This document shows, piece after piece, positions 10,155 to 62,221 of a stretch of 64,000 bases of DNA. Position 1 is the first letter of the stretch, and each line of letters opens with the position of its first letter. Source of the stretch: Candidatus Rokuibacteriota bacterium. Lineage in GTDB: Bacteria; Methylomirabilota; Methylomirabilia; Rokubacteriales; CSP1-6. The notes below the pieces were generated by a model. It did no database searches. It worked only from the letters and a program-made list of their open reading frames with translations, and had not been told where the DNA came from. The stretch covers positions 51,184 to 115,183 of the forward strand of contig QHTE01000046.1 in NCBI GenBank assembly GCA_003220685.1, in the 5' to 3' direction. The position numbers were made by a program, and so were the translations under genes.

Positions 10155-10715
10155 ATGTCCATCGCACGCGCCGTGAGCCGGACTCTCGTCCTGAGCGCGC
10201 TGGCCGTTCTGGTCCTGGCTAGCGCTGCCGCCGCCCTGGAAGTTGGGCAGAAGGCCCCCGACTTCGCCCTCAACGGGACCGACGGCAAGCCCGTCAAGCT
10301 CTCAGACTTGACGGCCAAGGGGCCCGTCGTCATTTATACCTTCATCGCCGCGTTCACCCCGACCTGAACCCGTGAACTCGCCGGCTTCGAGGCGGCCCTG
10401 CCGCAGTTCGAAGCCGCCGGCGCCCAGGTCGTGGGCGTCAGCACCGATCACCACCTCGCCCTCGCCGCGTGGCAGAAAGACCAGCATTCGAAGCAGCTCC
10501 TCCTCTCGGATTTCCGCCGTCAAATGCTCCCGGCGTACGGGGCGATGGAGACGAACGAGGCGAGCCCCGTCTATCGTTACGCGAAGCGGGCGTACTTCAT
10601 CATCGACAAGACGGGCACCGTCAAATACATGAAGATCATGGACAGCCCGCTGAACCTCCTCGAGCCGGCCGAAGTGCTCGCGGCGGTGAAGGCAGCAAAC
10701 CTGTCCATGAAATGA
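10155..10715 (+). CDS. Selenocysteine-containing peroxiredoxin (BCP/PrxQ-like, AhpC/TSA family), secreted; UGA at 10365-10367 read as Sec
   Basis: ATG 10155 has an AAGGAGG RBS and a Sec-type signal peptide. The 5' and 3' portions are in the same frame, separated only by a TGA at the peroxidatic Cys position: VVIYTFIAAFTPT-U-TRELAGFE aligns to the BCP motif VVLYFYPKDDTPGCTTE. The downstream half (VVGVSTD...LLSDF...YFIIDKTGTV) is the canonical Prx C-terminal half. A strong hairpin starts 11 nt after the UGA. Confidence 0.75.
10379..10422 (+). promoter_or_regulatory. Candidate bacterial SECIS-like hairpin downstream of the in-frame UGA
   Basis: CGCCGGCTTCGA / TCGAAGCC(GCC)GGCG stem with an inner GCGGC-CCT-GCCGC mini-helix. 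It starts 11 nt 3' of the UGA, the same spacing as the E. coli fdhF SECIS. Confidence 0.5.
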
Positions 10716-23697: not shown

Positions 23698-23847
23698 CGC
23701 TCTCCCCCTGAAAGAAATGGGTCGGGTCAAAAATGTTTCGGGGAGACACGCTAGCAACCCGGTTCTTCTGCCCACGCAAGAAATCGTAGCCGCGAGAGGC
23801 TGGCGCCGCGCGCGCCGGCGGCTACCAGATCTGGTGGCTCGCCGAGG

Positions 23848-24153
23848 TCAGAGTCGGCTGTTCAGGAGCGCGCCCCACGTCGCCACCAGGAACGGCACCA
23901 GATAGGTGAGAGGCACCTTCCAGGCCAGCGCGGTCGGCCACCGCGAGGACAGCAGCACGTCGCCCTGGTTGATGGCCAGGAGGACGGTGCCCACGATGAC
24001 GGCGATCCCGAGCGAGCGCTTCAGCAAGGGCGGATGTCGCAGCGCGCACCGGCCGCACTTGAGCACGGCGTTGGAGCCGACCCCGAAGAAGAAGAGCCGC
24101 CGGACGCGCTCGCGCCCGCACGAGTCGCAGCGGCCGGTTGGCGCCGGATCCAC
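23848..24153 (-). CDS. Small membrane protein with N-terminal double CxxC (zinc-ribbon-like) motif
   Basis: 101 aa with CDSCG...CGRC followed by two hydrophobic helices. Family unknown. Confidence 0.35.
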   Translation of the reverse strand: MDPAPTGRCDSCGRERVRRLFFFGVGSNAVLKCGRCALRHPPLLKRSLGIAVIVGTVLLAINQGDVLLSSRWPTALAWKVPLTYLVPFLVATWGALLNSRL

Positions 24154-24277
24154 GGCCCCGATTCTAACGGTATCGGGCCTTTCCGGCCCTGGCGTCGACC
24201 GTGGTATACCGGAAGAGCCACCATATGAAGCGCCCGGTGACCAACCGCGTCAGCGTCCCACGTCCCGGAGGTCTCTC

Positions 24278-24751
24278 GTGACCGGTCTGCGCTTCGGGCA
24301 GGCGGCACCGGGCTTCTCGCTGCCGTCGAGCGCGGGCGGCGAGACGTCCCTGGCCGACTTCAAGGGCAAGGACGTCGTGCTCGTCTTCTATTGCTACGAC
24401 TGGGGGGGCATCTGAACGCCCGAGCTGAGCGACCTGGGCCGGGTCGCCGACGAGATCGCCAGACGGGGCGCCGCCGTGGTCGCCATCAGCGGTGACAGCC
24501 CGTTCTGCCACGCCGCGTTCATGAAGGCGCGCAACTTCCCGTTCGCGCTCCTGAGCGACGTGCACCGCGCGGCGATCCGCGCCTACGGCGTGCTCGACGT
24601 CGATCGCAACGTCGCCTACCGCTCGACCTTCATCGTGGACCGGGACGGCGTGCTCCGCTGGGGGCAGGCCGGCGATCGCGAGATGGTTCGCGACGGGAGC
24701 GAGATCCTCCGCGTGCTCGACGTGATCGAAGGGCTCCGGCGGAAGCGCTGA
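24278..24751 (+). CDS. Selenocysteine-containing peroxiredoxin-like protein (AhpC/TSA thioredoxin fold); UGA at 24413-24415 read as Sec
   Basis: GTG 24278 with GGAGG 6 nt upstream. VLVFYCYDWGGI-U-TPEL aligns residue-for-residue with the Prx active-site VLFFYPLDFTFVCPTEI, placing the in-frame TGA at the peroxidatic Cys. The downstream in-frame half (AVVAISGDSPFCHAAF...LLSDV...RSTFIVDRDGVL) is the Prx C-terminal half. The N-terminal 124 codons of the track ORF 23906..24415 are rejected. Confidence 0.7.
24429..24447 (+). promoter_or_regulatory. Candidate SECIS-like hairpin
   Basis: GCGACC-tgggccg-GGTCGC, starting 13 nt after the UGA. It is shorter than the other two hairpins. Confidence 0.35.
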
Positions 24752-24759
24752 GTTGGCGC

Positions 24760-25698
24760 ATGAGCCGGGAGCCCCAGGACGTCTTCCGCAAGCTCACGCA
24801 GAACGTCGAGACGGTGATGCGCGGCCAGTCCGGCGCGATCCGGCGCCTGCTCGCCGCGTTCGCGAGCGGCGGCCACGTGCTGCTCGAGGACTATCCCGGC
24901 ACCGGCAAGACCACCCTGGCGAAGGCGCTCGCGCGCTCGATCGGCGGCCGCTTCAAGCGCATCCAGTTCACGCCTGATCTCCTGCCCTCGGACATCCTCG
25001 GGGTGTCCGTGTTCGACCAGCGCGCCCAGGCCTTCCACTTCCACGAGGGCCCCGTCTTCACCAACGTGCTGCTGGCCGACGAGATCAACCGCGCCTCGCC
25101 CCGCACGCAGTCCGCGCTCCTGGAAGCAATGGCCGAAGGCCAGGTCTCGGTCGAGGGCAGCTCCTATCGCCTGGCGGAGCTGTTCTTCGTCATCGCCACG
25201 CAGAATCCCGTCGAGTTTCGCGGCACCTATCCCTTGCCCGAGGCGCAGATGGACCGGTTCGCGGTGCAGCTGAGCCTCGGCTACGTGGCGCCCGAGGACG
25301 AGGTGGCGATCCTCTCGGCGCAGGCCCAGCGCCATCCGATCGACACCCTGGCGCCGTGCGTCTCGATCGACGACGTGCTGATGGTGCGCCGGCGCGCCGC
25401 AAGTGTCCGCATGAGCGACGAGCTGAAGCGCTACGCGGTCGACGTCGTGCGTGCCACGCGCGCCGCGAACGGCATCCAGCTCGGGGCCAGCCCGCGCGCC
25501 TCGCTGGCGCTCATGAAGGCCGCGCAGGCGCTGGCCCTCTCCGAAGGCCGCGAGTTCGTGGTCCCAGAGGACGTGCGTGAGATGGCGGTGCCCGTCATCG
25601 CTCACCGCATGGTCGTCGAGCCGCAGGCGCGCTTCGCCGGGGTGACGACGGCCGGGCTCGTCGAGGAGATTCTCGCGAAAGTCCCGATGCCGTCGTAG
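24760..25698 (+). CDS. moxR: MoxR-family AAA+ ATPase
   Basis: 312 aa with Walker A GYPGTGKT, Walker B LLADEINRA and a MoxR-type C-terminal domain. Confidence 0.85.
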   Translation: MSREPQDVFRKLTQNVETVMRGQSGAIRRLLAAFASGGHVLLEDYPGTGKTTLAKALARSIGGRFKRIQFTPDLLPSDILGVSVFDQRAQAFHFHEGPVFTNVLLADEINRASPRTQSALLEAMAEGQVSVEGSSYRLAELFFVIATQNPVEFRGTYPLPEAQMDRFAVQLSLGYVAPEDEVAILSAQAQRHPIDTLAPCVSIDDVLMVRRRAASVRMSDELKRYAVDVVRATRAANGIQLGASPRASLALMKAAQALALSEGREFVVPEDVREMAVPVIAHRMVVEPQARFAGVTTAGLVEEILAKVPMPS

Positions 25699-25704
25699 GC
25701 GCCG

Positions 25705-25755
25705 TGTGCGCTGCAGGTCGTCGCGGGGCTGGAGCCCCGCCGGCCGAGGCGCACC
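25705..25755. repeat. REP-like palindromic intergenic element (plus orientation)
   Basis: GTGTGCGCTGCAGGTCGTCGCGGGGCTGGAGCCCCGCCGGCCGAGGCGCAC between moxR and the DUF58 gene. Confidence 0.6.
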
Positions 25756-25769
25756 TATGGACAGAAAAT

Positions 25770-27095
25770 ATGAAGCGCCTCCTGTACCGCTGGTTCAGCT
25801 CCTTCGCGGCGTTTCAGTACCGGCTCGACCGGCGGTGCACGCGGGCCGGCTCGCTCGCCCTCGGCGTGCTCGGCGCCGCGATCGTGATCGGCCTCGACAC
25901 GAACCGGAGCGTCGGCTACCAGGTCTTCACCCTGGTGCTCGCCCTCGTCGCCCTCTCCGCGGCGTCGAGCCTGGTCTTTCGCGGGCGGTTCGCGGCGCAC
26001 CGGATCCTGCCGCGCTTCGCCTCCGTCGGCGTGCCGGTCGCCTACCGCGTCGCGATCGCCAATCAGACCGGCCGGCGCCAGGACGGGCTGGTCCTGCTGG
26101 AGGAGCTCACCGATCCGCGCCCGTCATTCGAGGAGTTCGTGACGGCCCGCGAGCCCGGCGAGGAGCGGCGGAACTGGTTCGACCGGCAGGTCGGCTATCC
26201 GCGCTGGGCCTGGCTCGTCTCGCAGAAGCGCGGCGCAGTCATCCCGCCGCGGCCGCTGCCCCCGCTCGACCCCGCGGTCGAGACCGAAGTGACCGTCGAG
26301 ATCACGCCGCTGCGCCGGGGCCTCCTGCGGTTCAGGGGCATCACGATCGCGCGGCCGGACCCGCTGGGGCTCATTCAGGCGCTCAAGTCGATCGCGTTGC
26401 CCCAGTCGCTCCTCGTCCTGCCGAAGCGGTATCCGATGGCGGAGATCCGGATCGCGGGTACCCGCAAGTACCAGCCGGGCGGCGTCGCGCTCGCGTCCAC
26501 CGTCGGCGACTCCGAGGAGTTCGTGTCACTGCGCGACTATCGGGCCGGCGATCCGATGCGCCGCATCCACTGGAAGAGCTTCGCCCGCGTCGGCCGGCCG
26601 GTCGTGAAGGAGTATCTCGACGAGTTCTTCGTGCGCCACGCGCTCGTGCTGGACACGTTCACGAGCCACGTCGGCGATCCGATCTTCGAGGAAGCCGTCT
26701 CGGTCGCGGCGTCGATCGCGATCTCGATGCAGACCCAGGAGTCGCTGCTCGACCTCATGTTCGTGGGGCCGGAGGCCTACTGCTTCACCGCCGGGCGCGG
26801 CGTCGCCCACACCGAGCAGCTGCTCGAGGTACTGGCGTGCGTCGGCCCGTGTCGGGACAAGGCGTTCCGCTCGCTGCACCACGCGGTGATCGATCGCCAC
26901 GACGTGCTGAGCGGCTGCGTCTGCGTGCTGCTCGCGTGGGACGCCGCGCGGCAGGAGCTCGTCCGCCACCTGGAGGCGCTCGGCACGCCGACCCGCGTCT
27001 TCGTCGTCGGCGAGCGGGCGACGCTCGACCGCCTACCGGGTGACGTGCACGGGCTCGAGATGGGCCGGATCGCCGAGGGGCTCGCATGCCTGTGA
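25770..27095 (+). CDS. DUF58 domain protein (MoxR-associated, vWA-like)
   Basis: Start ATG 25770 (MKRLLYRWFSS) avoids the REP element. The DUF58 region VSLRDYRAGDPMRRIHWKSFAR is conserved. Confidence 0.7.
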   Translation: MKRLLYRWFSSFAAFQYRLDRRCTRAGSLALGVLGAAIVIGLDTNRSVGYQVFTLVLALVALSAASSLVFRGRFAAHRILPRFASVGVPVAYRVAIANQTGRRQDGLVLLEELTDPRPSFEEFVTAREPGEERRNWFDRQVGYPRWAWLVSQKRGAVIPPRPLPPLDPAVETEVTVEITPLRRGLLRFRGITIARPDPLGLIQALKSIALPQSLLVLPKRYPMAEIRIAGTRKYQPGGVALASTVGDSEEFVSLRDYRAGDPMRRIHWKSFARVGRPVVKEYLDEFFVRHALVLDTFTSHVGDPIFEEAVSVAASIAISMQTQESLLDLMFVGPEAYCFTAGRGVAHTEQLLEVLACVGPCRDKAFRSLHHAVIDRHDVLSGCVCVLLAWDAARQELVRHLEALGTPTRVFVVGERATLDRLPGDVHGLEMGRIAEGLACL

Positions 27096-29116
27096 CGCCG
27101 CCCCCGCTGCTACTCGGCGCCGCGCTCCTCTTCTGGGGCTGGCAGACCGGCTTTCCGTTCCTCGCGCTGCCGCTGGCGATCCTCATCGAGGCCGCGCGCG
27201 CCCTGACGTGGCGGCTCGAGCTGTCGGCGACCGACTTCCACCGTCTCACCGATCTCTGCACCCTGCTGATCGGCGTCAGCGGCGTCTATCTCTTCTCGAC
27301 CACCGGCACCTCGCGGGCCGTCGACGGCCCCCGCGCGATGACGCTCTTGTTCCAGTGGCTGCCGTTCCTGATCTTCCCGCTGGTCGCGATCCAGCTCTAC
27401 AGCACGGCCGGAAAGGTCCCGCTGACGGCGTTCTTCTGGGCGCTCAGGCGTCAGGCGGCCCGCGCGCCCGAGACCCGGCCCGGACAGGTCGATCTCGGCT
27501 ACCTCTACTTCGCGCTCTGCGTCCTTTCGGCCAGCGCCGCCAACCGGCGCACCCTCGAGTTCTACGCGGGCCTGTGCGCGCTCGCGGCCTGGGCCCTCTG
27601 GCCGTGGCGCTCGCGACGCTTCTCGCCGCTCTGGTGGGCGCCGATGCTCGGCGTCGCCGCCCTCGCGGGGTACAGCGGCCACGTCGCGCTGCACCGGTTC
27701 CAGCAGGTGGTCGAGCAGACGGTGTTCGACTACATCTTCAGCATGGTGCGCGGCGACGCGGATCCGTTTCGGGTGACGACGGCCATCGGTCACCTCGGTC
27801 GGCTGAAGTTGTCGGAGCGCACGGTGCTGCGCGTCGAGCCGCGCGAGGGGCTCCGGCTGCCGTTTCTCCTGCGCGAGGCGAGCTACGACGTCTACAACTC
27901 GCCGGCGTGGCTCGCCTCCGGCGCGGCCTTCACGGCCGTCCAGCCCGAGGCCGACGGTGAGACGTGGCGGTTCGGCGCCGGTCGGAGCCCGGTCGAGCGG
28001 ATCACGGTCTCGGCCTACCTGAACCGCGGGCGCGGCGTGCTCGCCCTGCCGGGCGGGGCGTTCGAGATCGACCGCCTGGCCGTCGTCGGCGTCCAGAAGA
28101 ACCGCCTCGGGGCGGTGAAGGTCGAGGAAGGGCTGGGGCTCGTCACCTACACGACACTCTTCACGCCCGACGGGCCGCTCGATGCGCCGCCGGTCGAGGC
28201 CGATCTTCAAGTTCCCACGCGAGAGGCCCCGCTCGTCTCGCGGATCGCGGCGGACCTGGGGCTCGCCGGCGGGTCGCCCGTCGAGAAGGTCGACATCATC
28301 GCCGCGTACTTCCGAAGAAACTTCCGCTACTCGACCTGGAAGGGCGAGCGCCCACGGCGAGAGTCGGCGCTCGAGGAATTTCTCCTGAACTCGCGCGCGG
28401 GGCACTGCGAGTACTTCGCCACCGCCACGACCTTGCTCCTGCGGGCGGCCGGCGTGCCGGCTCGCTACACGGTCGGCTTCTCGGTTCAGGAATGGAGCCG
28501 CCTCGAGCAGCGGTACATCGTGCGCGCGCGTCACGCTCACTCCTGGACGCTCGCCTACGTGAACGGCGTCTGGCGCGACGTGGACACGACGCCGGCCGTG
28601 TGGGCCCAGACCGAGCAGAGCGAGTCGTCCTCGCTCGAGCCCGTGCACGATCTCTGGTCCTTCGCCGTCTTCCTGTTCTCGAAATGGCGGTGGAGCGAGG
28701 ACGACAGCGGCATCGGCCGGCACGCCGCCTGGCTCCTGATCCCGCTGGTGCTCCTGCTCGTCTGGCGTCTCTACTCGCGCCGGCGCGTCGGCCGCGAGGC
28801 CGCGGCGTCGCGCGCGACGGTCGCGGTCGCCCGCCCGGGTCAGGACTCCGAGTTCTACCTGATCGCCGAGCGCCTGCTCGCCGCGGGGCTCGGCCGTCGG
28901 GCGGACGAATCGCCGGCCGCCTGGATCGCGCGCATTCACGCGGCCGAGCTCGCCCCGATCCTGGACCTTCACTACCGCTATCGCTTCGACCCCACCGGCC
29001 TCGACGCCACCCAGCGGACTTCGCTCAGAGCGCAAGCCGATGCGTGGCTGCACGACCACGCGATGGAAACGAGCGTGACCGGCCCGCCGCCGCAAGCCGC
29101 TTCACGAACGTGCTAG
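27086..29116 (+). CDS. Transglutaminase-like domain membrane protein (DUF3488 - transglutaminase core - DUF4129 architecture)
   Basis: 676 aa with N-terminal multi-TM region and the transglutaminase Cys motif GHCEYFATATTLLLRAAGVPARYTVGF. It overlaps the DUF58 stop. Confidence 0.75.
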   Translation: MPVTPPPLLLGAALLFWGWQTGFPFLALPLAILIEAARALTWRLELSATDFHRLTDLCTLLIGVSGVYLFSTTGTSRAVDGPRAMTLLFQWLPFLIFPLVAIQLYSTAGKVPLTAFFWALRRQAARAPETRPGQVDLGYLYFALCVLSASAANRRTLEFYAGLCALAAWALWPWRSRRFSPLWWAPMLGVAALAGYSGHVALHRFQQVVEQTVFDYIFSMVRGDADPFRVTTAIGHLGRLKLSERTVLRVEPREGLRLPFLLREASYDVYNSPAWLASGAAFTAVQPEADGETWRFGAGRSPVERITVSAYLNRGRGVLALPGGAFEIDRLAVVGVQKNRLGAVKVEEGLGLVTYTTLFTPDGPLDAPPVEADLQVPTREAPLVSRIAADLGLAGGSPVEKVDIIAAYFRRNFRYSTWKGERPRRESALEEFLLNSRAGHCEYFATATTLLLRAAGVPARYTVGFSVQEWSRLEQRYIVRARHAHSWTLAYVNGVWRDVDTTPAVWAQTEQSESSSLEPVHDLWSFAVFLFSKWRWSEDDSGIGRHAAWLLIPLVLLLVWRLYSRRRVGREAAASRATVAVARPGQDSEFYLIAERLLAAGLGRRADESPAAWIARIHAAELAPILDLHYRYRFDPTGLDATQRTSLRAQADAWLHDHAMETSVTGPPPQAASRTC

Positions 29117-34720: not shown

Positions 34721-35548
34721 ATGCCGACGGTCAGACTGAGAGACGCCGAGGAGTACCCGGAGCCCGTCCAGAAGCTCTTCGAGGCCGCGAAGGCGTGGTT
34801 CAAGTACGACTTCGCCCAGCCGCCGGCGATGAGCCGGGTGATGGCGTGGGATCCGGAGCTCGGTGGCTTCCACGGGCGCGCGATGAAACGCGCGATGGGG
34901 CCGGGCGAGTGGAGCCGGGCCGAGAAGGAGATGGTCGCGGCGGTCGTGAGCGGCGTCAACGCCTGCGCCTACTGAGTAGGCGCCCACACTGCAGCCGGGA
35001 AGCTGCAGGGAATGGCCCACGACGCGCCCTGGTACGAGGCCGCGCTGCTGGTGGGCGTCACGAACGCGCTCAACGTCGTCGCCGACTCGCCGCTGGAGTC
35101 GCTCGAGCCGGCGCGCCCGAGCGCCGAGGCGCAGGCGGTGTTCGCCGAGATCCGCGCCTTCTACGAGCGCGCCGACGTGCCGGTGGCCTTCCGCCGCGTG
35201 GCGGCGGACCCGGGCTACCTGGCGGACCTGTGGGGCGCCGCACGGCGCGTGTTCGCCGACAACACACTCACGCGCCGTCACAAGGAGGCGCTGGCGTTCG
35301 CGGTCTCGGTCACGACGCGCTCGCAGTTCGGGACGGCGTTCCATCTCGGCGAGATGCGGCGACTCGGCGTCGGCGAGCGGGGAGTGATGGAGGTGCTCGG
35401 CGTCACGCAGATGTTCTCGAGCTACACCAAGATCGCCGACACGCTCCAGCTCGAGCCCGACATGGACGCCATCGCGGGCGTGGATCCATCACCCGCGCCC
35501 GGCGGTGCCGCGCCCGCGCCCAGGACGCGGCCGCCCGAGGCGCCGTAG
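34721..35548 (+). CDS. Selenocysteine-containing AhpD-like/carboxymuconolactone decarboxylase (CMD) family protein, two-domain; UGA at 34973-34975 read as Sec
   Basis: ATG 34721 with AAGGAG RBS. VSGVNACAY-U-VGAH matches the CMD/AhpD active-site motif NxCxYCxxxH with the TGA at the second Cys (CxxU). The downstream 178 codons are in the same frame and form a second, Cys-less CMD-like half. A CTGCAG palindromic hairpin lies 13 nt after the UGA. Confidence 0.7.
34989..35008 (+). promoter_or_regulatory. Candidate SECIS-like hairpin
   Basis: CTGCAG-ccgggaag-CTGCAG, starting 13 nt after the UGA. Confidence 0.4.
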
Positions 35549-47066: not shown

Positions 47067-47081
47067 GGCGGAGACTTAAAT

Positions 47082-47157
47082 GGTGGAGCTGAGGGGAGTC
47101 GAACCCCTGACCCCAAGACTGCCAGCCTTGTGCTCTCCCAACTGAGCTACAGCCCCA
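47082..47157 (-). tRNA. tRNA-Ala (anticodon GGC)
   Basis: 76 nt; clean cloverleaf with G3:U70 identity pair, anticodon loop CU-GGC-AG and encoded CCA. Confidence 0.85.
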
Positions 47158-47201
47158 CGCGAGAAATCACCCTACAGGGACGTGCGGAAGCTTGTCAAGA
47201 A

Positions 47202-47288
47202 TGGTGCCGGCGGTGGGACTCGAACCCACAAGCCCTTACGGGCACCCGGTTTTGAGCCGGGCTCGTTTGCCAGTTTCGACACGCCGGC
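47202..47288 (-). tRNA. tRNA-Leu (anticodon CAA), type II with long variable arm
   Basis: 87 nt with acceptor stem GCCGGCG/CGCCGGC, anticodon stem CCCGG/CCGGG, loop CU-CAA-AA, variable stem-loop GCCC-GTAA-GGGC, T-arm GTGGG-TTCGAGT-CCCAC and encoded CCA. Confidence 0.85.
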
Positions 47289-54688: not shown

Positions 54689-54803
54689 CTGCGGCCGAGC
54701 GTAGCACGATAGGTGCGGCTTCCCCGAGGAACCGAGACCGGTCGGGCCTCTCGGCCCGAAGTGCTATACTGTGCGCCCGGGTGCATCTCGAAGGAGGCAT
54801 ATC

Positions 54804-55147
54804 TTGTCGGGCTACCTGCCCGTTCTCATCTTCGCCGCGTTGATCCTCGGCTTCGGGGTCGTCTCGCTCGCGGTGGCGCGGCTTTTGCGTCCGAGCCGCC
54901 CCAGCCCCGTCAAGCTCATGAACTACGAGTGCGGCGCCGAGCCCATCGGGACCGCCTGGGTGCAGTTCCCCGTCGGCTTCTACCTGGTCGCGCTCGTGTT
55001 CATCGTCTTCGACGCGCTCGCAGTGTTCCTCTTCCCGTGGGCGCTGGTGCTCCGCGTCGTCGGCGTCAGCGCGTTCTGGGTGATGGCCGCGTTCGTCGGC
55101 CTCCTCGGACTCGGCTGGCTCTACGCGTACCGGGAGGGCGTGCTCGA

Positions 55148-55157
<10 letters not shown>
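54804..55157 (+). CDS. nuoA: NADH-quinone oxidoreductase subunit A
   Basis: TTG start 6 nt after AAGGAGG. 117 aa with three TM segments and a NuoA conserved core. Confidence 0.8.
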
Positions 55158-55785
<628 letters not shown>

Positions 55786-55789
<4 letters not shown>

Positions 55790-56235
55790 CGGCCGCCGAC
55801 GCGCGCGCGCGTATCCAGGAGCGCTTCGGAGTGGACGCGGTCGCCGACGGTGGGCTCGGCGTCACCCTGCCGCGCGATCGCTGGCAGGAGTTCGCCCGCT
55901 TCGCCCACGACGAGCTCGGCTGCCGCTACTTCAACTGGCTGTCCGCCGTGGACTGGCAGGACCAGGGTCTCGAGGTGCTCTGCCGCCTCGAGAACCTCGA
56001 CGCGCCGCTCGTGGTCGCGATGCGCACCCGGCTCCCCGCCGGCCAGACACGCTGTCCGTCGCTGACCTCGCTCTATCGCGGCGCCAACTGGATGGAGCGC
56101 GAGTGCTACGACATGTTCGGGATCGTCTTCGAAGGCCATCCCGACCTCCGACGCATCCTCCTCTCGGACGACTGGGAAGGCTACCCGCTCCGAAAGGACT
56201 ACGCCGTCGACACTCCGCTGGCCCCGTACCGATGA
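55786..56235 (+). CDS. nuoC: NADH-quinone oxidoreductase subunit C (30 kDa)
   Basis: 149 aa with ATGA overlap with nuoB. NuoC motif [23 protein letters not shown]. Confidence 0.85.
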
Positions 56236-56248
56236 GGAGACACGGTCC

Positions 56249-56884
56249 ATGATCTACGAGCTGCGCACCTATACCCTCTCGCCCGGCAAGCAGGGCGAGT
56301 ACCTCAAGCTCAATTCCGAGGTCGGCCGTCCGATCCGCGGCGACAAGTACGGCAAGCTCGAGGGCTCGTGGACGACCGAGTTCGGCACCCTCAACCAGTA
56401 CGTCCACCTCTGGGCCTACGCCGACCTGGTCGAGCGCGAGCGGCTGCGGGACGAGCTCGCGAAGAACGAGGCGTGGGGCCGCGACTACGTCGCGAAGATC
56501 CGGCCGCTGCTCCTCGCCCAGGAGAACAAGATCCTGTCGGCGCAGCTGCCGCTGAAGCCGCCGGGCGACGGCGGGCACGTCTACGAGCTCCGGGCGTATC
56601 GCACCCAGGTCGGGAAGGCCGGCGAGTGGCTCGGCCACTTCAAGGCGATCATGCCCGTGCGCGAGAAGTACTCGAAGAACGTGGGCGTGTTCCAGACCGA
56701 GGTGGCCCAGCTCAACGAGGTCGTGCACCTCTGGGCCTATCGCGATCTGAACGATCGGGCGGCCGTCCGCGGCAAGGTTCTTCAAGACGCGGAGTGGCAG
56801 GCGTTCCTCGGCAAGGCGACGCCGCTGCTCGTCGAGATGCGCTCGGTGGCGATGATTCCCGCGCCGTCCTCGCCGATGAAGTAA
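56249..56884 (+). CDS. NIPSNAP family protein (tandem NIPSNAP domains) inserted in the complex I operon
   Basis: 211 aa with two repeats of the YELRTYTL...HLWAY pattern. Confidence 0.7.
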   Translation: MIYELRTYTLSPGKQGEYLKLNSEVGRPIRGDKYGKLEGSWTTEFGTLNQYVHLWAYADLVERERLRDELAKNEAWGRDYVAKIRPLLLAQENKILSAQLPLKPPGDGGHVYELRAYRTQVGKAGEWLGHFKAIMPVREKYSKNVGVFQTEVAQLNEVVHLWAYRDLNDRAAVRGKVLQDAEWQAFLGKATPLLVEMRSVAMIPAPSSPMK

Positions 56885-56891
56885 CTCGACC

Positions 56892-58055
56892 GTGGCCGCG
56901 ACGCAGACCCAGCAGGTCGTCGAGATCGGGTACGGGGGCAACGAGCGCCTCATGATGAACATGGGGCCGCAGCACCCATCATCCCACGGCGTGTTCCGCA
57001 TGATCCTCACGCTCGAGGGCGAGACCGTCGTCGGCGTCGACGCCGTGATCGGCTATCTCCACCGCTGCCACGAGAAGCTCGGCGAGAGCCTGACGTACGT
57101 GCAGTACCCGTCGATCGCATCGAAGACCGACTACGTCGCGGCCATGACCGCCGAGCTCGCGTACGTCTCCGCCGTCGAGAAGATCGCGAAGGTCGAGGTT
57201 CCCCGCCGCGCGCAGTACCTGCGCGTGATCGTCGCCGAGCTGCAGCGGATCGCCTCCCACTGCCTCTGGCTCGGCACCTGGTGCCTGGACATGGGCGGAG
57301 CGCTCGGGGGCGGCGCGACCGTCTTCCTCTACTGCATCCGCGAGCGCGAGATGGTCCTGGATCGCTTCGAGGAGCTGACCGGCGCGCGCCTGCTCTACGG
57401 CTTCCACCAGACGGGCGGCACCCGGTACGACGTGCCGCCGGGCTGGGACAAGAAGGTGCGCGAGACGGTCGACTTCATCGAGCGCCGGCTCGACGAGTAC
57501 GAGTCGATGCTGGAGGGCAACACGTTCTTCCGCGTGCGCACGCAGGGCGTCGGCGTGATCTCGCGCGAGGTCGCCGAGACGGTGGGCGTGTCGGGCCCGC
57601 TGATCCGCGGCTCGGGCGTGGGGTACGACGTCCGGCGGGCCGAGCCGTATTCGTCGTACGGCGATTTCGACTTCGTCGTGCCCGTGGAGACCGCGGGCGA
57701 TTGCTACGCGCGCTATCGCGTGCGCATGGTCGAGTTCCGTCAGTCGATCCGGATCATCCGGCAGGCGCTCGACGGGCTCCCCGAGGGCCCGATCTCCTCG
57801 CGTCCCGGCGTGAAGTCCGTCGCCCAGGTCCGCGTGCCCAAGGGCGAGGGCTACACGCGCATCGAGGGCGCCCGCGGCGAGATCGGCTGCTACATCGTGA
57901 GCGACGGCGGGCCGAAGCCGTACCGCCTGAAGTGGCGGGGCGCGTCCTTCTCGAACCTGGCCGTCCTGCCCTACATCGTGCCCGGCCACAAGGTCGCCGA
58001 CGTGGTCGCGATCATGGGCTCCGTCGATCCGGTATTCGGGGAAGTCGACCGGTGA
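56892..58055 (+). CDS. nuoD: NADH-quinone oxidoreductase subunit D (49 kDa)
   Basis: GTG start. Motifs MMNMGPQHPSSHGVFRM and the C-terminal region match NuoD. Confidence 0.9.
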   Translation: MAATQTQQVVEIGYGGNERLMMNMGPQHPSSHGVFRMILTLEGETVVGVDAVIGYLHRCHEKLGESLTYVQYPSIASKTDYVAAMTAELAYVSAVEKIAKVEVPRRAQYLRVIVAELQRIASHCLWLGTWCLDMGGALGGGATVFLYCIREREMVLDRFEELTGARLLYGFHQTGGTRYDVPPGWDKKVRETVDFIERRLDEYESMLEGNTFFRVRTQGVGVISREVAETVGVSGPLIRGSGVGYDVRRAEPYSSYGDFDFVVPVETAGDCYARYRVRMVEFRQSIRIIRQALDGLPEGPISSRPGVKSVAQVRVPKGEGYTRIEGARGEIGCYIVSDGGPKPYRLKWRGASFSNLAVLPYIVPGHKVADVVAIMGSVDPVFGEVDR

Positions 58056-59041
58056 CCTTGCCGCCCATGGCCTGGCACGCGATCGAGGCGTTCATCGTCC
58101 TGAACGTCCTGCTCGGGCTGGTCGCCTACGTCACGCTGCTCGAGCGCAAGTTCGCCGCGCGCATGCAGTCGCGGATCGGCCCGTACTACGTCGGCCGGCC
58201 CCACGGCTGGCTCCAGCCGATCGCCGACGCGCTCAAGCTGATGATGAAGGAAGACATCGTCCCGGCCACCAGCGATCGCGCGGTCTACAACCTGGCGCCG
58301 ATCGTCTTCCTCGTCCCGTGCTTGCTGATCTTCGCGACGCTCCCGTTCGCGCCCACGCTCGGCGTCGCCGACCTGAACATCGGCGTACTGTTTTTCCTGG
58401 CCGTCTCGTCGCTGGAGATCGTCGGCCTCTTCATGGGCGGCTGGGGGTCGAACAACAAGTACGCGCTCCTGTCGGCGATGCGCGCGGTCAACCAGATCAT
58501 CTCCTACGACCTGCCGTTCATCTTCGCCGCGCTCGTTCCGGTCGTCCTCGCCGGCTCGATGCAGATGTCGTCGATCGTCGCCGCGCAGCAGGGACTCTGG
58601 TTCGTCGCCTACCCTCTCATCGGCCAGCTCGCCTTCCTCGCCTTCGTGGTGGCCACGCTCGCCGCCGAGAACCGGGTGCCCTTCGACATCCTCGAGGCCG
58701 AGTCGGAGCTGGTCGCCGGCTTCCGGGTCGAGTACAGCGGCATGAAGTTCGCCCTGATCCAGCTCGGCGAGTACGCGCACATGCTGGGCACGAGCTTCCT
58801 CGGCGCCCTGCTCTTCCTGGGCGGCTGGCTCGGCCCCGGGCCGGCGGCGCTCGGACCGCTGTGGCTCCTGCTCAAGGCGATGGTGATCTTCCTGCTGGTC
58901 ACCTGGGTGCGCTGGTCATTCGTGCGGATCCGGGTCGACCACATCCTGGCGATCTCGTGGAAGCTCCTGATGCCGGCGACCCTCGTCTTGCTGCTGGCGG
59001 CCGGGTTCGTCGTCGCGACGCGAGGCGCCGGTGGCGGGTAA
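58052..59041 (+). CDS. nuoH: NADH-quinone oxidoreductase subunit H
   Basis: NuoH core ERKFAARMQSRIGPYYVGRPHGWLQPIADALKL. The start is either the GTG at 58052 (GTGA-coupled to nuoD) or the ATG at 58067. Confidence 0.85.
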   Translation: MTLPPMAWHAIEAFIVLNVLLGLVAYVTLLERKFAARMQSRIGPYYVGRPHGWLQPIADALKLMMKEDIVPATSDRAVYNLAPIVFLVPCLLIFATLPFAPTLGVADLNIGVLFFLAVSSLEIVGLFMGGWGSNNKYALLSAMRAVNQIISYDLPFIFAALVPVVLAGSMQMSSIVAAQQGLWFVAYPLIGQLAFLAFVVATLAAENRVPFDILEAESELVAGFRVEYSGMKFALIQLGEYAHMLGTSFLGALLFLGGWLGPGPAALGPLWLLLKAMVIFLLVTWVRWSFVRIRVDHILAISWKLLMPATLVLLLAAGFVVATRGAGGG

Positions 59042-59600
59042 CGGCGGCGCGCCCGCGTTCTGGCGCGAGACGGGCCAGCTGATCGGCGCCATCGGGCGCG
59101 CGATGGGCGTCACCTTGCGGAACCTCTTCCGCAAGCCGGTGACCGTCCACTATCCCGACGTCCAGCGGCAATACCCGGACCGCTTCCGGGGCATCCTCGC
59201 CCTCGCCTACGACAAGGAGACCGGCGAGGAGGCGTGCATCGGCTGCCGTCTCTGCGAGTACGTCTGCCCGCCGCAAGTGATCAAGGTCGAGATGCTGAAG
59301 GGCCAGAAGCGGAACTACGCGAAGACGTTCACCCTCGAGCTCTACGCGTGCGAGTTCTGCGAGCTGTGCGTGCAGGTGTGCCCGACCGACGCGATCATCA
59401 TGATGAAATCCTTCGATCTCGCGACCGCGGACCGGCGCGAGCTCCTGCTCGACAAGGACCGGCTGCACGCCCTCGGCCTCACGTTCGAGCCATCGTGGGC
59501 CACGGGCAACCGGCTGCGCGACATGCAGGCGCCGCCGAGGCCGGCGCGAGCCGAGGCCAGGGGAGAAGCCAAGGGAGAGGCGAAGGAGCCGGCCGAGTGA
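59031..59600 (+). CDS. nuoI: NADH-quinone oxidoreductase subunit I (2x[4Fe-4S])
   Basis: Two CxxCxxCxxxCP motifs (CIGCRLCEYVCP, CEFCELCVQVCP). The N-terminus aligns to Thermus Nqo9 (GVTLRNLFRKPVTVHYPD). The start is GTG 59031 or ATG 59103, so it is uncertain. Confidence 0.8.
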   Translation: MAGNGGAPAFWRETGQLIGAIGRAMGVTLRNLFRKPVTVHYPDVQRQYPDRFRGILALAYDKETGEEACIGCRLCEYVCPPQVIKVEMLKGQKRNYAKTFTLELYACEFCELCVQVCPTDAIIMMKSFDLATADRRELLLDKDRLHALGLTFEPSWATGNRLRDMQAPPRPARAEARGEAKGEAKEPAE

Positions 59601-60091
59601 CCCTCGAAGCGGTTGGATTCTGGGTGGTAGCCGTGGTGCTACTCGCCTCGAGCCTTGCCGTCGTGCTCACCCCGAACCTGTTCCACGCCGTCCTCTACCT
59701 CGCCGCGGCCCTGGTCGCCACGGGCGCGATCTTCCTCTTGCTGGAGCAGCCCTTCCTCTTCGCCGTGCAGCTCCTGCTCTACGCCGGGGGCGTCGTCACG
59801 ATCGTGGTGTTCGCGATCATGCTGACCGAGCGGCTGATCGGGGAGCGCGTCCGGCAGACGAGCCGGCACCTCGTCAACGGCGCGATCGTCGCGGCCGCGG
59901 TCTTCGCCGGCATCGCGGGCTTCCTGCTGCGGTCGCCGCTGGCGACGCCGCGCCCGGGACCGGTCGACGACGCCACGGTCGCGATCGGGCGCGCCCTGGT
60001 GGGCCCCTTCGCCGTGACGCTCGAGCTCCTGGGCGTGCTCCTGGTGACGGCTCTCCTCGGCGCCCTCTACTTCGCGCGGAGCGACGAGTGA
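59597..60091 (+). CDS. nuoJ: NADH-quinone oxidoreductase subunit J
   Basis: GTGA-coupled to nuoI. 164 aa with 5 TM segments. Confidence 0.8.
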   Translation: MTLEAVGFWVVAVVLLASSLAVVLTPNLFHAVLYLAAALVATGAIFLLLEQPFLFAVQLLLYAGGVVTIVVFAIMLTERLIGERVRQTSRHLVNGAIVAAAVFAGIAGFLLRSPLATPRPGPVDDATVAIGRALVGPFAVTLELLGVLLVTALLGALYFARSDE

Positions 60092-60390
60092 TCGGGCTCT
60101 CGTCCTATCTGGTCCTGGCCGCGCTCATGTTCTCGATCGGGCTCTTCGGGGTCCTGACCCGCCGCAACGCGGTCGGTATCCTGCTCGGGATCGAGCTGAT
60201 GCTGAATGCCGTCAACATCAACCTGGTTGCCTTCGCGCGCTTTCACGGCGACCTGTTGGGGCTGGTCTTCACCTTGTTCACGCTCTCCATCACCGTCGCC
60301 GAGGTCGCCGTGGGACTCGCAATCGTCATCGTGATCTTCCGCGTGCGGCGGACGGTCGAGGCGGACCGCCTCGACCTGCTGCGGTGGTAG
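60088..60390 (+). CDS. nuoK: NADH-quinone oxidoreductase subunit K
   Basis: 100 aa with 3 TM segments and conserved Glu residues in TM2/TM3 (GIELML, AEVAVGLA). Confidence 0.9.
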   Translation: MIGLSSYLVLAALMFSIGLFGVLTRRNAVGILLGIELMLNAVNINLVAFARFHGDLLGLVFTLFTLSITVAEVAVGLAIVIVIFRVRRTVEADRLDLLRW

Positions 60391-60394
60391 CACC

Positions 60395-62208
<1,814 letters not shown>

Positions 62209-62221
<13 letters not shown>

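What the first reader, a model, noticed from the sequence alone, without database searches (positions are those of the whole stretch)
24278..24751. Second peroxiredoxin-like gene with in-frame UGA at the catalytic Cys (VLVFYCYDWGGI-U-TPEL)
This is an independent second case. The N-terminal part (GTG 24278, GGAGG RBS) and the C-terminal part (track ORF 24476..24751) share a frame and are split by the TGA at 24413-24415. The TGA aligns with the peroxidatic Cys of the universal Prx motif FYPLDFTFVCPTE. A short GC hairpin follows 13 nt later. Two separate Prx genes both interrupted at exactly the redox residue is not what random nonsense mutations would give.
Basis: partly seen in the sequence, partly recalled or inferred. 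Interest (0 to 1): 0.85.

Follow-up and report, generated by a model that had tools for sequence, protein, structure and literature searches.

The report
Selenocysteine peroxiredoxin gene in Rokubacteria
The apparent stop codon inside this peroxiredoxin gene is almost certainly a selenocysteine codon at the catalytic position: it is kept as TGA in 80 related soil-bacterium genomes and followed by a conserved RNA hairpin, so this is a real but mis-annotated member of a known class of selenoproteins, with an unusual active-site motif.

Summary
Window 24278-24751 (+) is one 157-codon AhpC/TSA peroxiredoxin gene with an in-frame TGA (24413-24415) that aligns exactly with the peroxidatic Cys. It is not a pseudogene. 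The codon is TGA in all 80 species-level genomes recovered (mostly Candidatus Rokubacteria/Methylomirabilota MAGs, 64-94% aa identity), never TGC, TGT, TAA or TAG. The gene's real stop varies freely (TGA 50, TAA 21, TAG 15). Both halves are under purifying selection. T-P-E-L straight after the TGA is 96-100% conserved, and no restart codon is conserved. A 7-bp hairpin (24430-24446, loop GGC, 21 nt from UGA to loop) meets the published bacterial SECIS model. It shows compensatory changes, including one at a synonymous Leu codon. The nearest full-length relatives (32-39% identity) carry Cys at this position. TGA ends 20 of 45 genes in the window, so there is no code reassignment. Two other genes in the window (a second Prx and an AhpD-like gene) also have TGA at a redox Cys. 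I could not search these genomes for selA/B/C/D. Support for the Sec trait in the phylum comes from the literature only. Sec-peroxiredoxins are a known kind. This clade differs in its active site, CxxxGxxU instead of PxxxTxxU, and public gene calls truncate it.

The parts
24267..24271 (+). Shine-Dalgarno-like GGAGG, 6 nt before the start codon
   Evidence: Read directly from the sequence.
24278..24751 (+). Complete Sec-peroxiredoxin coding sequence: 157 codons including Sec46, GTG start, terminal TGA at 24749-24751
   Evidence: One frame throughout. Pfam AhpC-TSA 8e-36 spanning the TGA. GC3 0.93 before and 0.95 after the TGA, 0.59 upstream of the start. tblastn matches residues 1-157 in 80 genomes.
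24392..24394 (+). Cys39 codon (TGC), 7 residues before Sec, where canonical Prx has the Pro of PxxxTxxC; candidate resolving Cys
   Evidence: Cys in 81/81 sequences using both TGC (69) and TGT (12). The resolving role is inferred. The equivalent Pro38 of MtAhpE lies near the reactive Cys (PMC7231847).
24404..24406 (+). Gly43 codon, where canonical Prx has the catalytic Thr/Ser (-3)
   Evidence: Gly in 81/81. The nearest Cys-form relatives have S/T there.
24413..24415 (+). In-frame TGA = predicted selenocysteine codon (Sec46) at the peroxidatic position
   Evidence: TGA in 85/85 related loci. Aligns to the peroxidatic Cys of Prx2 and of 13+ nearest full-length relatives. The terminal stop of the same gene varies TGA/TAA/TAG.
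24430..24446 (+). bSECIS-like hairpin inside the coding sequence: 5' arm 24430-24436 (CGACCUG), apical loop 24437-24439 (GGC), 3' arm 24440-24446 (CGGGUCG)
   Evidence: RNAalifold consensus. 97.3% of cells paired against 12-46% in slid controls, with 3 pairs showing double changes. -8.4 kcal/mol here, median -9.1, and 77/81 at or below -7.5. 21 nt between UGA and loop. Tree-aware covariation.
24620..24622 (+). Arg115 codon, the conserved catalytic Arg of peroxiredoxins (AYR motif)
   Evidence: Invariant in 81/81. Aligned to the AYR of Prx2.

Best explanation
Window 24278-24751 encodes one 157-residue cytoplasmic peroxiredoxin whose peroxidatic residue is selenocysteine. During translation the UGA at 24413-24415 is read as Sec: the hairpin at 24430-24446, 14 nt downstream within the coding sequence, acts as a bacterial SECIS element that recruits SelB with GTP and Sec-tRNA(Sec). 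This step is inferred from the anatomy and conservation.

The product has a Prx1/AhpE-like fold with Sec46 at the start of helix alpha2 and the catalytic Arg115. The selenolate attacks a hydroperoxide to give a selenenic acid. My inference is that this is resolved either by the invariant Cys39, which replaces the active-site Pro at -7, forming an intramolecular Cys39-Sec46 selenenylsulfide, or directly by an external thiol as in 1-Cys AhpE. A thioredoxin-, glutaredoxin- or AhpD-like reductant then recycles the enzyme.

The gene is a conserved, stand-alone antioxidant gene of Candidatus Rokubacteria/Methylomirabilota. Automatic annotation splits it into a 45-aa and a 91-aa ORF.
For: Shown here:
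1. TGA at this codon in 85/85 loci, including 80 different species genomes at 64-94% aa identity, with no TGC/TGT/TAA/TAG. The true stop of the same gene is TGA 50, TAA 21, TAG 15.
2. dN/dS of about 0-0.25 in both the N- and C-terminal parts for close pairs. T47-P48-E49-L50 right after the TGA are 96-100% conserved. The first in-frame start after the TGA lies anywhere from +4 to +73 codons.
3. The hairpin meets the four bSECIS criteria quoted in PMC13188914: 7-bp stem with a 3-nt loop, G in loop positions 1-2, 21-nt spacing, and MFE at or below -7.5 in 77/81.
4. Covariation: pair 20/32 is AU 39, GC 28, GU 14 with zero mismatches and at least 14 state changes on the tree. Pair 24/28 links a synonymous Leu codon to the partner base (CTG with a C-initial codon 54/56, CTC with a G-initial codon 15/16), while CTC and CTG are used equally elsewhere.
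5. The TGA column is Cys in the nearest full-length relatives and in all solved Prx.
6. Pfam AhpC-TSA spans the TGA. An AF2 model of a 71%-identical homologue matches only peroxiredoxins (TM 0.64-0.71).
7. TGA terminates 20 of 45 genes in the window.
8. Two further genes in the window have TGA at a redox Cys followed by a hairpin.

From the literature: a Methylomirabilota MAG is predicted to have 63 selenoprotein genes (PMC13188914), and Sec-type hydrogenases occur in that phylum (PMC13582414).
Against: - No tRNA-Sec, selA, selB or selD was found in the window or in 1.38 Mb of related loci. The rest of these genomes could not be searched, so the Sec machinery is not shown for this organism.
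- Folding this sequence alone does not single out the hairpin (z = -1.1 and -0.9, and the MFE picks a competing structure).
- The -3 Thr/Ser that Cys-peroxiredoxins need is Gly here, so peroxidase activity is less certain than the Sec decoding.
- There is no proteomic or 75Se evidence.
- One database homologue (P0001) shows L at the Sec column and could not be traced.
Confidence: 0.9

Rival explanations
1. UGA plus the hairpin is recoded, but to an amino acid other than Sec. One route is Cys delivered by a SelC*-type tRNA (tRNA-ReC) through SelB. Another is low-level near-cognate read-through as Trp or Cys.
For: tRNA-ReC, which decodes UGA as Cys in the presence of a SECIS, is described in several bacterial phyla (PMC13582414). 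Nothing in the DNA separates Sec from SelB-delivered Cys.
Against: If Cys were acceptable, a single-base TGA to TGC/TGT change should appear among 80 species. It never does, while Cys39 switches freely between TGC and TGT. That paper's tRNA-ReC counts for UXXU-type genomes name Armatimonadota, Desulfobacterota and JAPLJL01, not Methylomirabilota. The loss of the Thr needed by Cys-Prx fits a more reactive selenolate better.
Confidence: 0.05
2. A split gene: the TGA is a true stop, and the 45-aa N-terminal peptide and a separately initiated C-terminal fragment (for example from GTG 24476) are made and assemble non-covalently, or only the C-terminal part works.
For: Gene callers produce exactly this 45-aa plus 91-aa pair in all five assemblies. 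Hundreds of database entries are 91-108 aa fragments.
Against: No restart codon is conserved: the first in-frame ATG/GTG/TTG lies anywhere from +4 to +73 codons. The 20 codons between the TGA and GTG 24476 are protein-conserved, with TPEL at 96-100%. A plain stop would drift among TGA/TAA/TAG as the terminal stop does. Such a split would leave no catalytic residue at the peroxidatic position.
Confidence: 0.02
3. A pseudogene or an assembly or sequencing error: a nonsense mutation in a formerly Cys-containing peroxiredoxin.
For: An isolated in-frame stop in a single sequence is most often this.
Against: The same TGA is in 5 independent assemblies and 80 species genomes. dN/dS is well below 1 on both sides. 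GC3 is 0.93 and 0.95 on the two sides. There are no other disruptions.
Confidence: 0.01
4. Genome-wide reassignment of UGA to a sense codon, as in code 4 or 25. This is what the W-containing database translations imply.
For: Nine 'full-length' database homologues show W at this column.
Against: Those same translations run past the normal stop with another W, as expected when code 4 is applied to short contigs. In the window 20 of 45 confident genes end in TGA, this one included. The genome is 69.5% G+C.
Confidence: 0.01

Closest known systems
Selenocysteine-containing peroxiredoxins: PrxU of Eubacterium acidaminophilum (Sohling et al. 2001) and the 'Prx, PF00578, TxxU' selenoprotein family of the Zhang/Gladyshev catalogues (PMC13188914)
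   Same: Same Pfam domain. Sec replaces the peroxidatic Cys at the same structural position. UGA is followed by an in-frame bSECIS hairpin. The catalytic Arg and the Glu at +3 are retained.
   Different: The motif is CxxxGxxU in 81/81 sequences rather than the PxxxTxxU the review describes as crucial. The score against the curated PrxU model NF040737 is 71 bits against a cutoff of 270. The lineage is aerobic-soil and groundwater Rokubacteria rather than anaerobic Clostridia or Deltaproteobacteria.
Mycobacterium tuberculosis AhpE (Rv2238c), a 1-Cys peroxiredoxin reduced by mycoredoxin-1
   Same: Similar size (153 vs 157 aa) with no C-terminal extension carrying a resolving Cys. Sequence E=5e-17. 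Structural TM 0.64-0.68. JGI labels several homologues 'mycoredoxin-dependent peroxiredoxin'.
   Different: About 26-28% identity in the structural alignment to the model of homologue P0004. AhpE has Cys45, Thr42 and Pro38, where this protein has Sec46, Gly43 and Cys39. No mycoredoxin-like neighbour was seen.
Typical 2-Cys Prx1/AhpC peroxiredoxins (human Prx2, tryparedoxin peroxidase)
   Same: Best sequence hits (E=5e-20) and best structural hits. Conserved FY-x-x-D-[FW] and AYR motifs.
   Different: The C-terminal arm with the resolving Cys is missing. The peroxidatic residue is Sec, and the Thr and Pro are missing.
Prx-like thiol:disulfide oxidoreductase selenoproteins (UxxC/UxxU), UGC-containing Prx-like protein, PRX_like2 (UxxS), and Prx-SUH (CxxU)
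   Same: These are also PF00578-type or thioredoxin-fold selenoproteins listed in the review.
   Different: Their Sec lies in CxxC-type or other motifs. Here the context is I-U-T-P-E, with no Cys or Ser at +3 and none at -3. NF045827 (Prx-SUH) gave no hit for this protein.

Membership tests
Bacterial selenoprotein gene (Sec-UGA with bSECIS) | In-frame UGA conserved as UGA among orthologues, with coding conservation on both sides | tested here: met
   TGA in 85/85 loci. dN/dS well below 1 on both sides. TPEL after the UGA 96-100% conserved.
Bacterial selenoprotein gene (Sec-UGA with bSECIS) | [quoted passage not shown] | tested here: met
   7-bp stem, loop G-G/U-N, 21 nt spacing, -8.4 kcal/mol here and 77/81 at or below -7.5. 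Covariation supported on a tree.
Bacterial selenoprotein gene (Sec-UGA with bSECIS) | Homologues with Cys aligned to the UGA | tested here: met
   The nearest full-length relatives (32-39% identity) and all solved Prx have Cys at that column.
Bacterial selenoprotein gene (Sec-UGA with bSECIS) | selA, selB, selC (tRNA-Sec) and selD present in the same genome | not testable with these tools
   None in the window or in 1.38 Mb of flanks. Literature support is at phylum level only.
Bacterial selenoprotein gene (Sec-UGA with bSECIS) | Selenium physically present in the protein (75Se labelling or mass spectrometry) | not testable with these tools
   Requires an experiment.
Peroxiredoxin (AhpC/TSA, PF00578) | Domain match above the curated threshold and a Prx fold | tested here: met
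   123 bits against a cutoff of 26, covering 122 of 124 model positions. Foldseek top 50 hits are all peroxiredoxins (the model is of homologue P0004, pLDDT 73.7).
Peroxiredoxin (AhpC/TSA, PF00578) | Peroxidatic Cys/Sec and the conserved catalytic Arg | tested here: met
   UGA lies on the peroxidatic Cys column. Arg115 is invariant in 81/81.
Peroxiredoxin (AhpC/TSA, PF00578) | Thr/Ser at -3 and Pro at -7 of the PxxxTxxC motif | tested here: not met
   Gly43 and Cys39 in 81/81. In Cys-Prx the Thr is reported as replaceable only by Ser (PMC7231847).
Peroxiredoxin (AhpC/TSA, PF00578) | Hydroperoxide reductase activity | not testable with these tools
   Requires an enzyme assay.
PrxU (NCBIfam NF040737 equivalog) | Score at or above the curated cutoff of 270 bits | tested here: not met
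   71.3 bits. This is the best NCBIfam hit but far below the cutoff.
AhpE subfamily of peroxiredoxins | Closer to AhpE than to other Prx subfamilies; 1-Cys mechanism with a mycoredoxin or mycothiol reductant | tested here: inconclusive
   AhpE and Prx1-type proteins score about equally by sequence (5e-17 vs 5e-20) and by structure. No subfamily phylogeny was done, and no reductant gene is nearby.

The most novel reading that the evidence does not exclude
This is a distinct, obligately selenium-dependent peroxiredoxin subfamily that is widespread in Rokubacteria. Sec has made the otherwise essential active-site Thr dispensable (Gly in all members), and the active-site Pro has been replaced by an invariant Cys that acts as a built-in resolving residue, giving a C-x6-U selenenylsulfide within the active-site pocket. 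That would be a catalytic cycle different from those of the 1-Cys, typical 2-Cys and atypical 2-Cys Prx classes I know of. It would also explain why no member has reverted to Cys.
Probability: 0.3. Interest if true: 0.55.

Novelty: new member of a known kind. Interest (0 to 1): 0.4.

Why it matters
- Annotation: this gene is split into two short 'hypothetical' or 'AhpC' fragments in every public assembly examined, and hundreds of database clusters hold only the C-terminal fragment. Recognising it as one selenoprotein fixes the annotation of a gene present in at least 80 species of a major uncultured soil and groundwater phylum.
- Selenium use in Rokubacteria: together with the second Sec-Prx and the Sec-AhpD-like gene in the same 64 kb, it adds direct sequence evidence that Rokubacteria rely heavily on selenium for antioxidant defence, which has implications for selenium ecology in soils.
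- Enzymology: the strict retention of Sec alongside loss of the Prx catalytic Thr is a natural experiment on what Sec contributes to peroxidase catalysis.

Tried and rejected
- Rfam at gathering thresholds and ARAGORN on the window found only tRNA-Ala and tRNA-Leu, with no tRNA-Sec and no SECIS family.
This says little, because only 10-kb flanks are held.
- Single-sequence folding of the region after the UGA is not distinguishable from shuffles and gives a competing structure. I therefore rely on comparative data.
- The idea of a functional link to the downstream MoxR-DUF58-transglutaminase operon (9-nt gap) is rejected as a family feature. MoxR is adjacent in only 18/80 loci, all close relatives, and no neighbour is conserved across the family.
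- A GC3-only scan for other coding TGAs mostly returns shadow frames and gene junctions. A stricter version found the AhpD-like gene.
I modelled homologue P0004, which has W at the Sec site. Its active-site loop (residues 43-50) has low confidence, and no coordinates are returned, so the Cys39-Sec46 distance could not be measured.
- P0001, with L at the Sec column, could not be traced to DNA.
- The paper reporting 63 selenoproteins in a Methylomirabilota MAG (Deng et al. 2026) and the supplement of PMC13582414 are not held.
- Searches for Rokubacteria or Methylomirabilis with selenocysteine found nothing specific.
- The sigma-70 promoter and intrinsic terminator scan of 23700-25000 found nothing.

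Full report
**1. The observation**

The region reads as the first-stage reader said. GGAGG (24267-24271) sits 6 nt before GTG 24278. The frame runs 157 codons to TGA 24749-24751, interrupted only by TGA 24413-24415 at codon 46. The mechanical ORF list shows just the 91-aa piece 24476-24751.

With Cys in place of the stop, Pfam AhpC-TSA matches residues 7-128 against positions 2-123 of its 124-position model (E=8e-36, 123 bits against a cutoff of 26). The domain therefore needs both halves. GC3 is 0.93 before and 0.95 after the TGA, and 0.59 upstream of the GTG. phmmer against PDB sequences aligns the TGA with the peroxidatic Cys of human Prx2 (FYPLDFTFVCPTE) and aligns AYR115 with the catalytic Arg.

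**2. Where the window comes from**

The neighbouring MoxR-like protein is encoded, with the same 45-aa plus 91-aa split Prx upstream, on contigs from five independent soil assemblies (JGI, ENA, and NCBI MAG GCA_009771655.1). A sequencing error is therefore excluded.

A scan of one genome per GTDB species found 168 related stretches. The best 80 come from 80 different species. 68 of them are labelled Candidatus Rokubacteria, Rokuibacteriota or Methylomirabilota, and the rest carry other MAG labels that may reflect mis-binning or transfer.

**3. The TGA is selected for**

- At the aligned codon, all 85 loci have TGA, down to 64% amino-acid identity. None has TGC, TGT, TAA or TAG.
- The genuine stop of the same gene is TGA in 50, TAA in 21 and TAG in 15 sequences. 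Real stops drift, and this codon does not.
- Cys39, seven residues upstream, is Cys in 81/81 sequences and uses both TGC (69) and TGT (12). An ordinary Cys codon behaves differently from codon 46.
- Nei-Gojobori estimates give dN/dS of about 0-0.25 in both the N-terminal 45 codons and the C-terminal 111 codons for close pairs.
- The residues just after the TGA are T (96%), P (100%), E (100%) and L (99%). The first in-frame start codon after the TGA lies anywhere from +4 to +73 codons. A separately initiated C-terminal protein cannot be the conserved product.
- In the large protein database, the 'full-length' homologues carry W at this column and read through their normal stop with another W. 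These are code-4 translations of short contigs, not Cys forms. Hundreds of further clusters are 91-108-aa C-terminal fragments.
- TGA ends 20 of 45 confident genes in the window, so the code is standard.

**4. Cys homologues**

In a library clustered at 50% identity, every relative above about 55% identity is a fragment of 109 aa or less. The nearest full-length proteins are 32-39% identical overall, and they carry Cys at the TGA column within the canonical FYPxD[WF][ST]xxC motif. The Sec/Cys pairing used to define selenoproteins is therefore met. The Sec clade is well separated from Cys forms.

**5. The RNA element**

Folding this sequence alone is uninformative (z = -1.1 and -0.9, and the MFE is a competing fold). 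The evidence for the hairpin comes from comparing sequences.

- On 81 aligned sequences, RNAalifold predicts one helix, at window 24430-24436 and 24440-24446 with loop 24437-24439.
- 97.3% of cells are paired, against 12-46% when the 3' partners are slid by 1-3 columns. 0 of 500 shuffles reach the observed pairing or covariation score.
- Pair nt20/32, counted from the U of UGA, is A-U in 39, G-C in 28 and G-U in 14 sequences, with no mismatch. It changed state at least 14 times on a neighbour-joining tree built without the hairpin codons.
- These two bases are second codon positions (Asp/Gly and Val/Ala) four residues apart in a helix, so protein coevolution could contribute. That would not explain why Gly…Val (G-U) is common while Asp…Ala (A·C) is absent.
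- Pair nt24/28 is free of that confound. It links the synonymous third base of a Leu codon to the first base of the codon two positions on. CTG goes with a C-initial codon in 54 of 56 cases and CTC with a G-initial codon in 15 of 16. The C-G state occurs in 5 separate clades. CTC and CTG are used equally elsewhere in the gene, 555 vs 513.
- The element fits the published bacterial SECIS model (PMC13188914, section 5). It has a 7-bp stem and a 3-nt loop G-G/U-N (5 nt where the closing pair is G·A). There are 21 nt between UGA and loop. The stability is -8.4 kcal/mol here, with a median of -9.1 and 77/81 at or below -7.5.

**6. The protein**

- Foldseek against PDB returned only peroxiredoxins: Prx1/AhpC-type proteins and M. 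tuberculosis AhpE, TM 0.64-0.71.
- No NCBIfam model reaches its cutoff. The best is PrxU, the Sec-peroxiredoxin equivalog, at 71 bits against 270.
- The active site departs from the canonical PxxxTxxC/U motif. Position -7 is Cys and position -3 is Gly in 81/81 sequences, while Glu at +3 and Arg115 are invariant.
- The 2026 review describes the PxxxTxxU motif as crucial in Sec-Prx. PMC7231847 reports that the Thr of Cys-Prx can be replaced only by Ser, and that Pro38 of MtAhpE lies near the reactive Cys.
- From this I infer, without having shown it, that the selenolate tolerates loss of the Thr, which would explain the lack of any Cys revertant. I also infer that Cys39 may resolve the selenenic acid as an intramolecular selenenylsulfide.
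- The protein has no signal peptide.

**7. Context**

The MoxR-DUF58-transglutaminase genes that start 9 nt downstream accompany the gene in only 18 of 80 genomes. No neighbour is conserved across the family, and no Trx-, AhpF- or AhpD-like gene is adjacent.

Two other genes in the window have TGA at a redox Cys:
- A secreted-type Prx paralogue at 10155-10715, with TGA at 10365 in TPT-U-TREL.
- An AhpD/CMD-family gene at 34721-35548, with TGA at 34973 in C-A-Y-U-V-G-A-H. It is followed 20 nt later by a 7-bp hairpin with a CGGGAA loop.

Three such genes in 64 kb fit an organism that decodes Sec.

**8. What is missing**

I found no tRNA-Sec, selA, selB or selD in the window or in the 1.38 Mb held, and I could not search the rest of these genomes. 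Support for the Sec trait in the phylum comes from the literature. A Methylomirabilota MAG is predicted to have 63 selenoprotein genes (Deng et al. 2026, as cited in PMC13188914). Sec-type group 4 hydrogenases are reported in Methylomirabilota (PMC13582414).

The same paper describes tRNA-ReC, which reads UGA plus SECIS as Cys. I keep that as a minor rival. The total absence of TGC/TGT among 80 species argues against Cys being acceptable at this position.

**9. Verdict**

This is a genuine, conserved, mis-annotated selenocysteine peroxiredoxin gene. Sec-peroxiredoxins are a known selenoprotein kind, so it is a new member of a known kind rather than a new kind. Its points of interest are its presence in all 80 genomes recovered (mostly Rokubacteria), the strict retention of Sec, and the non-canonical CxxxGxxU active site.

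Noticed in passing
window 34721-35548 (+), TGA at 34973-34975: A third candidate selenoprotein gene. It is an AhpD/carboxymuconolactone-decarboxylase family protein (Pfam CMD 2.7e-16, match spanning the TGA) with the TGA in the active-site motif C-A-Y-U-V-G-A-H. GC3 is 0.94 before and 0.93 after. A 7-bp hairpin CUGCAGC-CGGGAA-GCUGCAG at 34989-35008 follows 20 nt after the UGA. AhpD-like proteins are a known selenoprotein family, and AhpD reduces AhpC in mycobacteria, so it could be a reductant for the Sec-Prx proteins.
   Followed up: partly
window 10155-10715 (+), TGA at 10365-10367: The 'first' Sec-Prx paralogue: 186 codons, a signal-peptide-like N-terminus, Pfam AhpC-TSA 2.6e-32, 28% identical to the gene studied here. 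Its TGA is at the aligned peroxidatic position in TPT-U-TREL, so it keeps the TxxU threonine. A long hairpin follows the UGA, but its apical loop (CCU) has no G (z=-1.9). Conservation in other genomes was not examined.
   Followed up: partly
database proteins P0002-P0010: Public metagenome gene calls translate this gene with TGA as Trp (code 4) on short contigs. This gives spurious 'full-length' proteins with W at the Sec site and read-through C-terminal tails. NCBI and ENA entries are instead truncated to 91-108 aa.
   Followed up: yes
database protein P0001 (161 aa, 72% identical): It shows Leu at the Sec column (GGILTPEL). No encoding contig is on record, so the codon could not be checked. 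It may be a real substitution or a translation artefact.
   Followed up: partly
loci L014, L031, L032, L046, L047, L049, L053, L061, L080, L084: Ten of the 80 genomes carrying this Rokubacteria-type gene are labelled as other phyla (Binatia, Dormibacterota, Verrucomicrobiia, Limnocylindria, the archaeon Nitrosocosmicus, Acidoferrum, Deferrimicrobiaceae, Myxococcales, Nitrospinota). This suggests mis-binned contigs or horizontal transfer.
   Followed up: no
window 24760-29116 (+): A MoxR-like AAA+ ATPase, a DUF58 protein and a transglutaminase-domain protein form a tight same-strand cluster starting 9 nt after the Prx stop. The cluster accompanies the Prx only in its closest relatives (18/80).
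   Followed up: yes
window 23848-24153 (-): A divergently oriented 101-aa ORF with an N-terminal CxxC…CxxC pattern (CDSCGRE…CGRCALRH), a hydrophobic C-terminal half and no Pfam hit. It is conserved upstream of the Prx in 10 related genomes.
   Followed up: no
window 54771-62221 (+) and 47081-47288 (-): By eye, several ORFs here look like NADH:quinone oxidoreductase (nuo) subunits, but I did not run them against any family library. tRNA-Ala(GGC) and tRNA-Leu(CAA) are the only tRNAs in the window.
   Followed up: no
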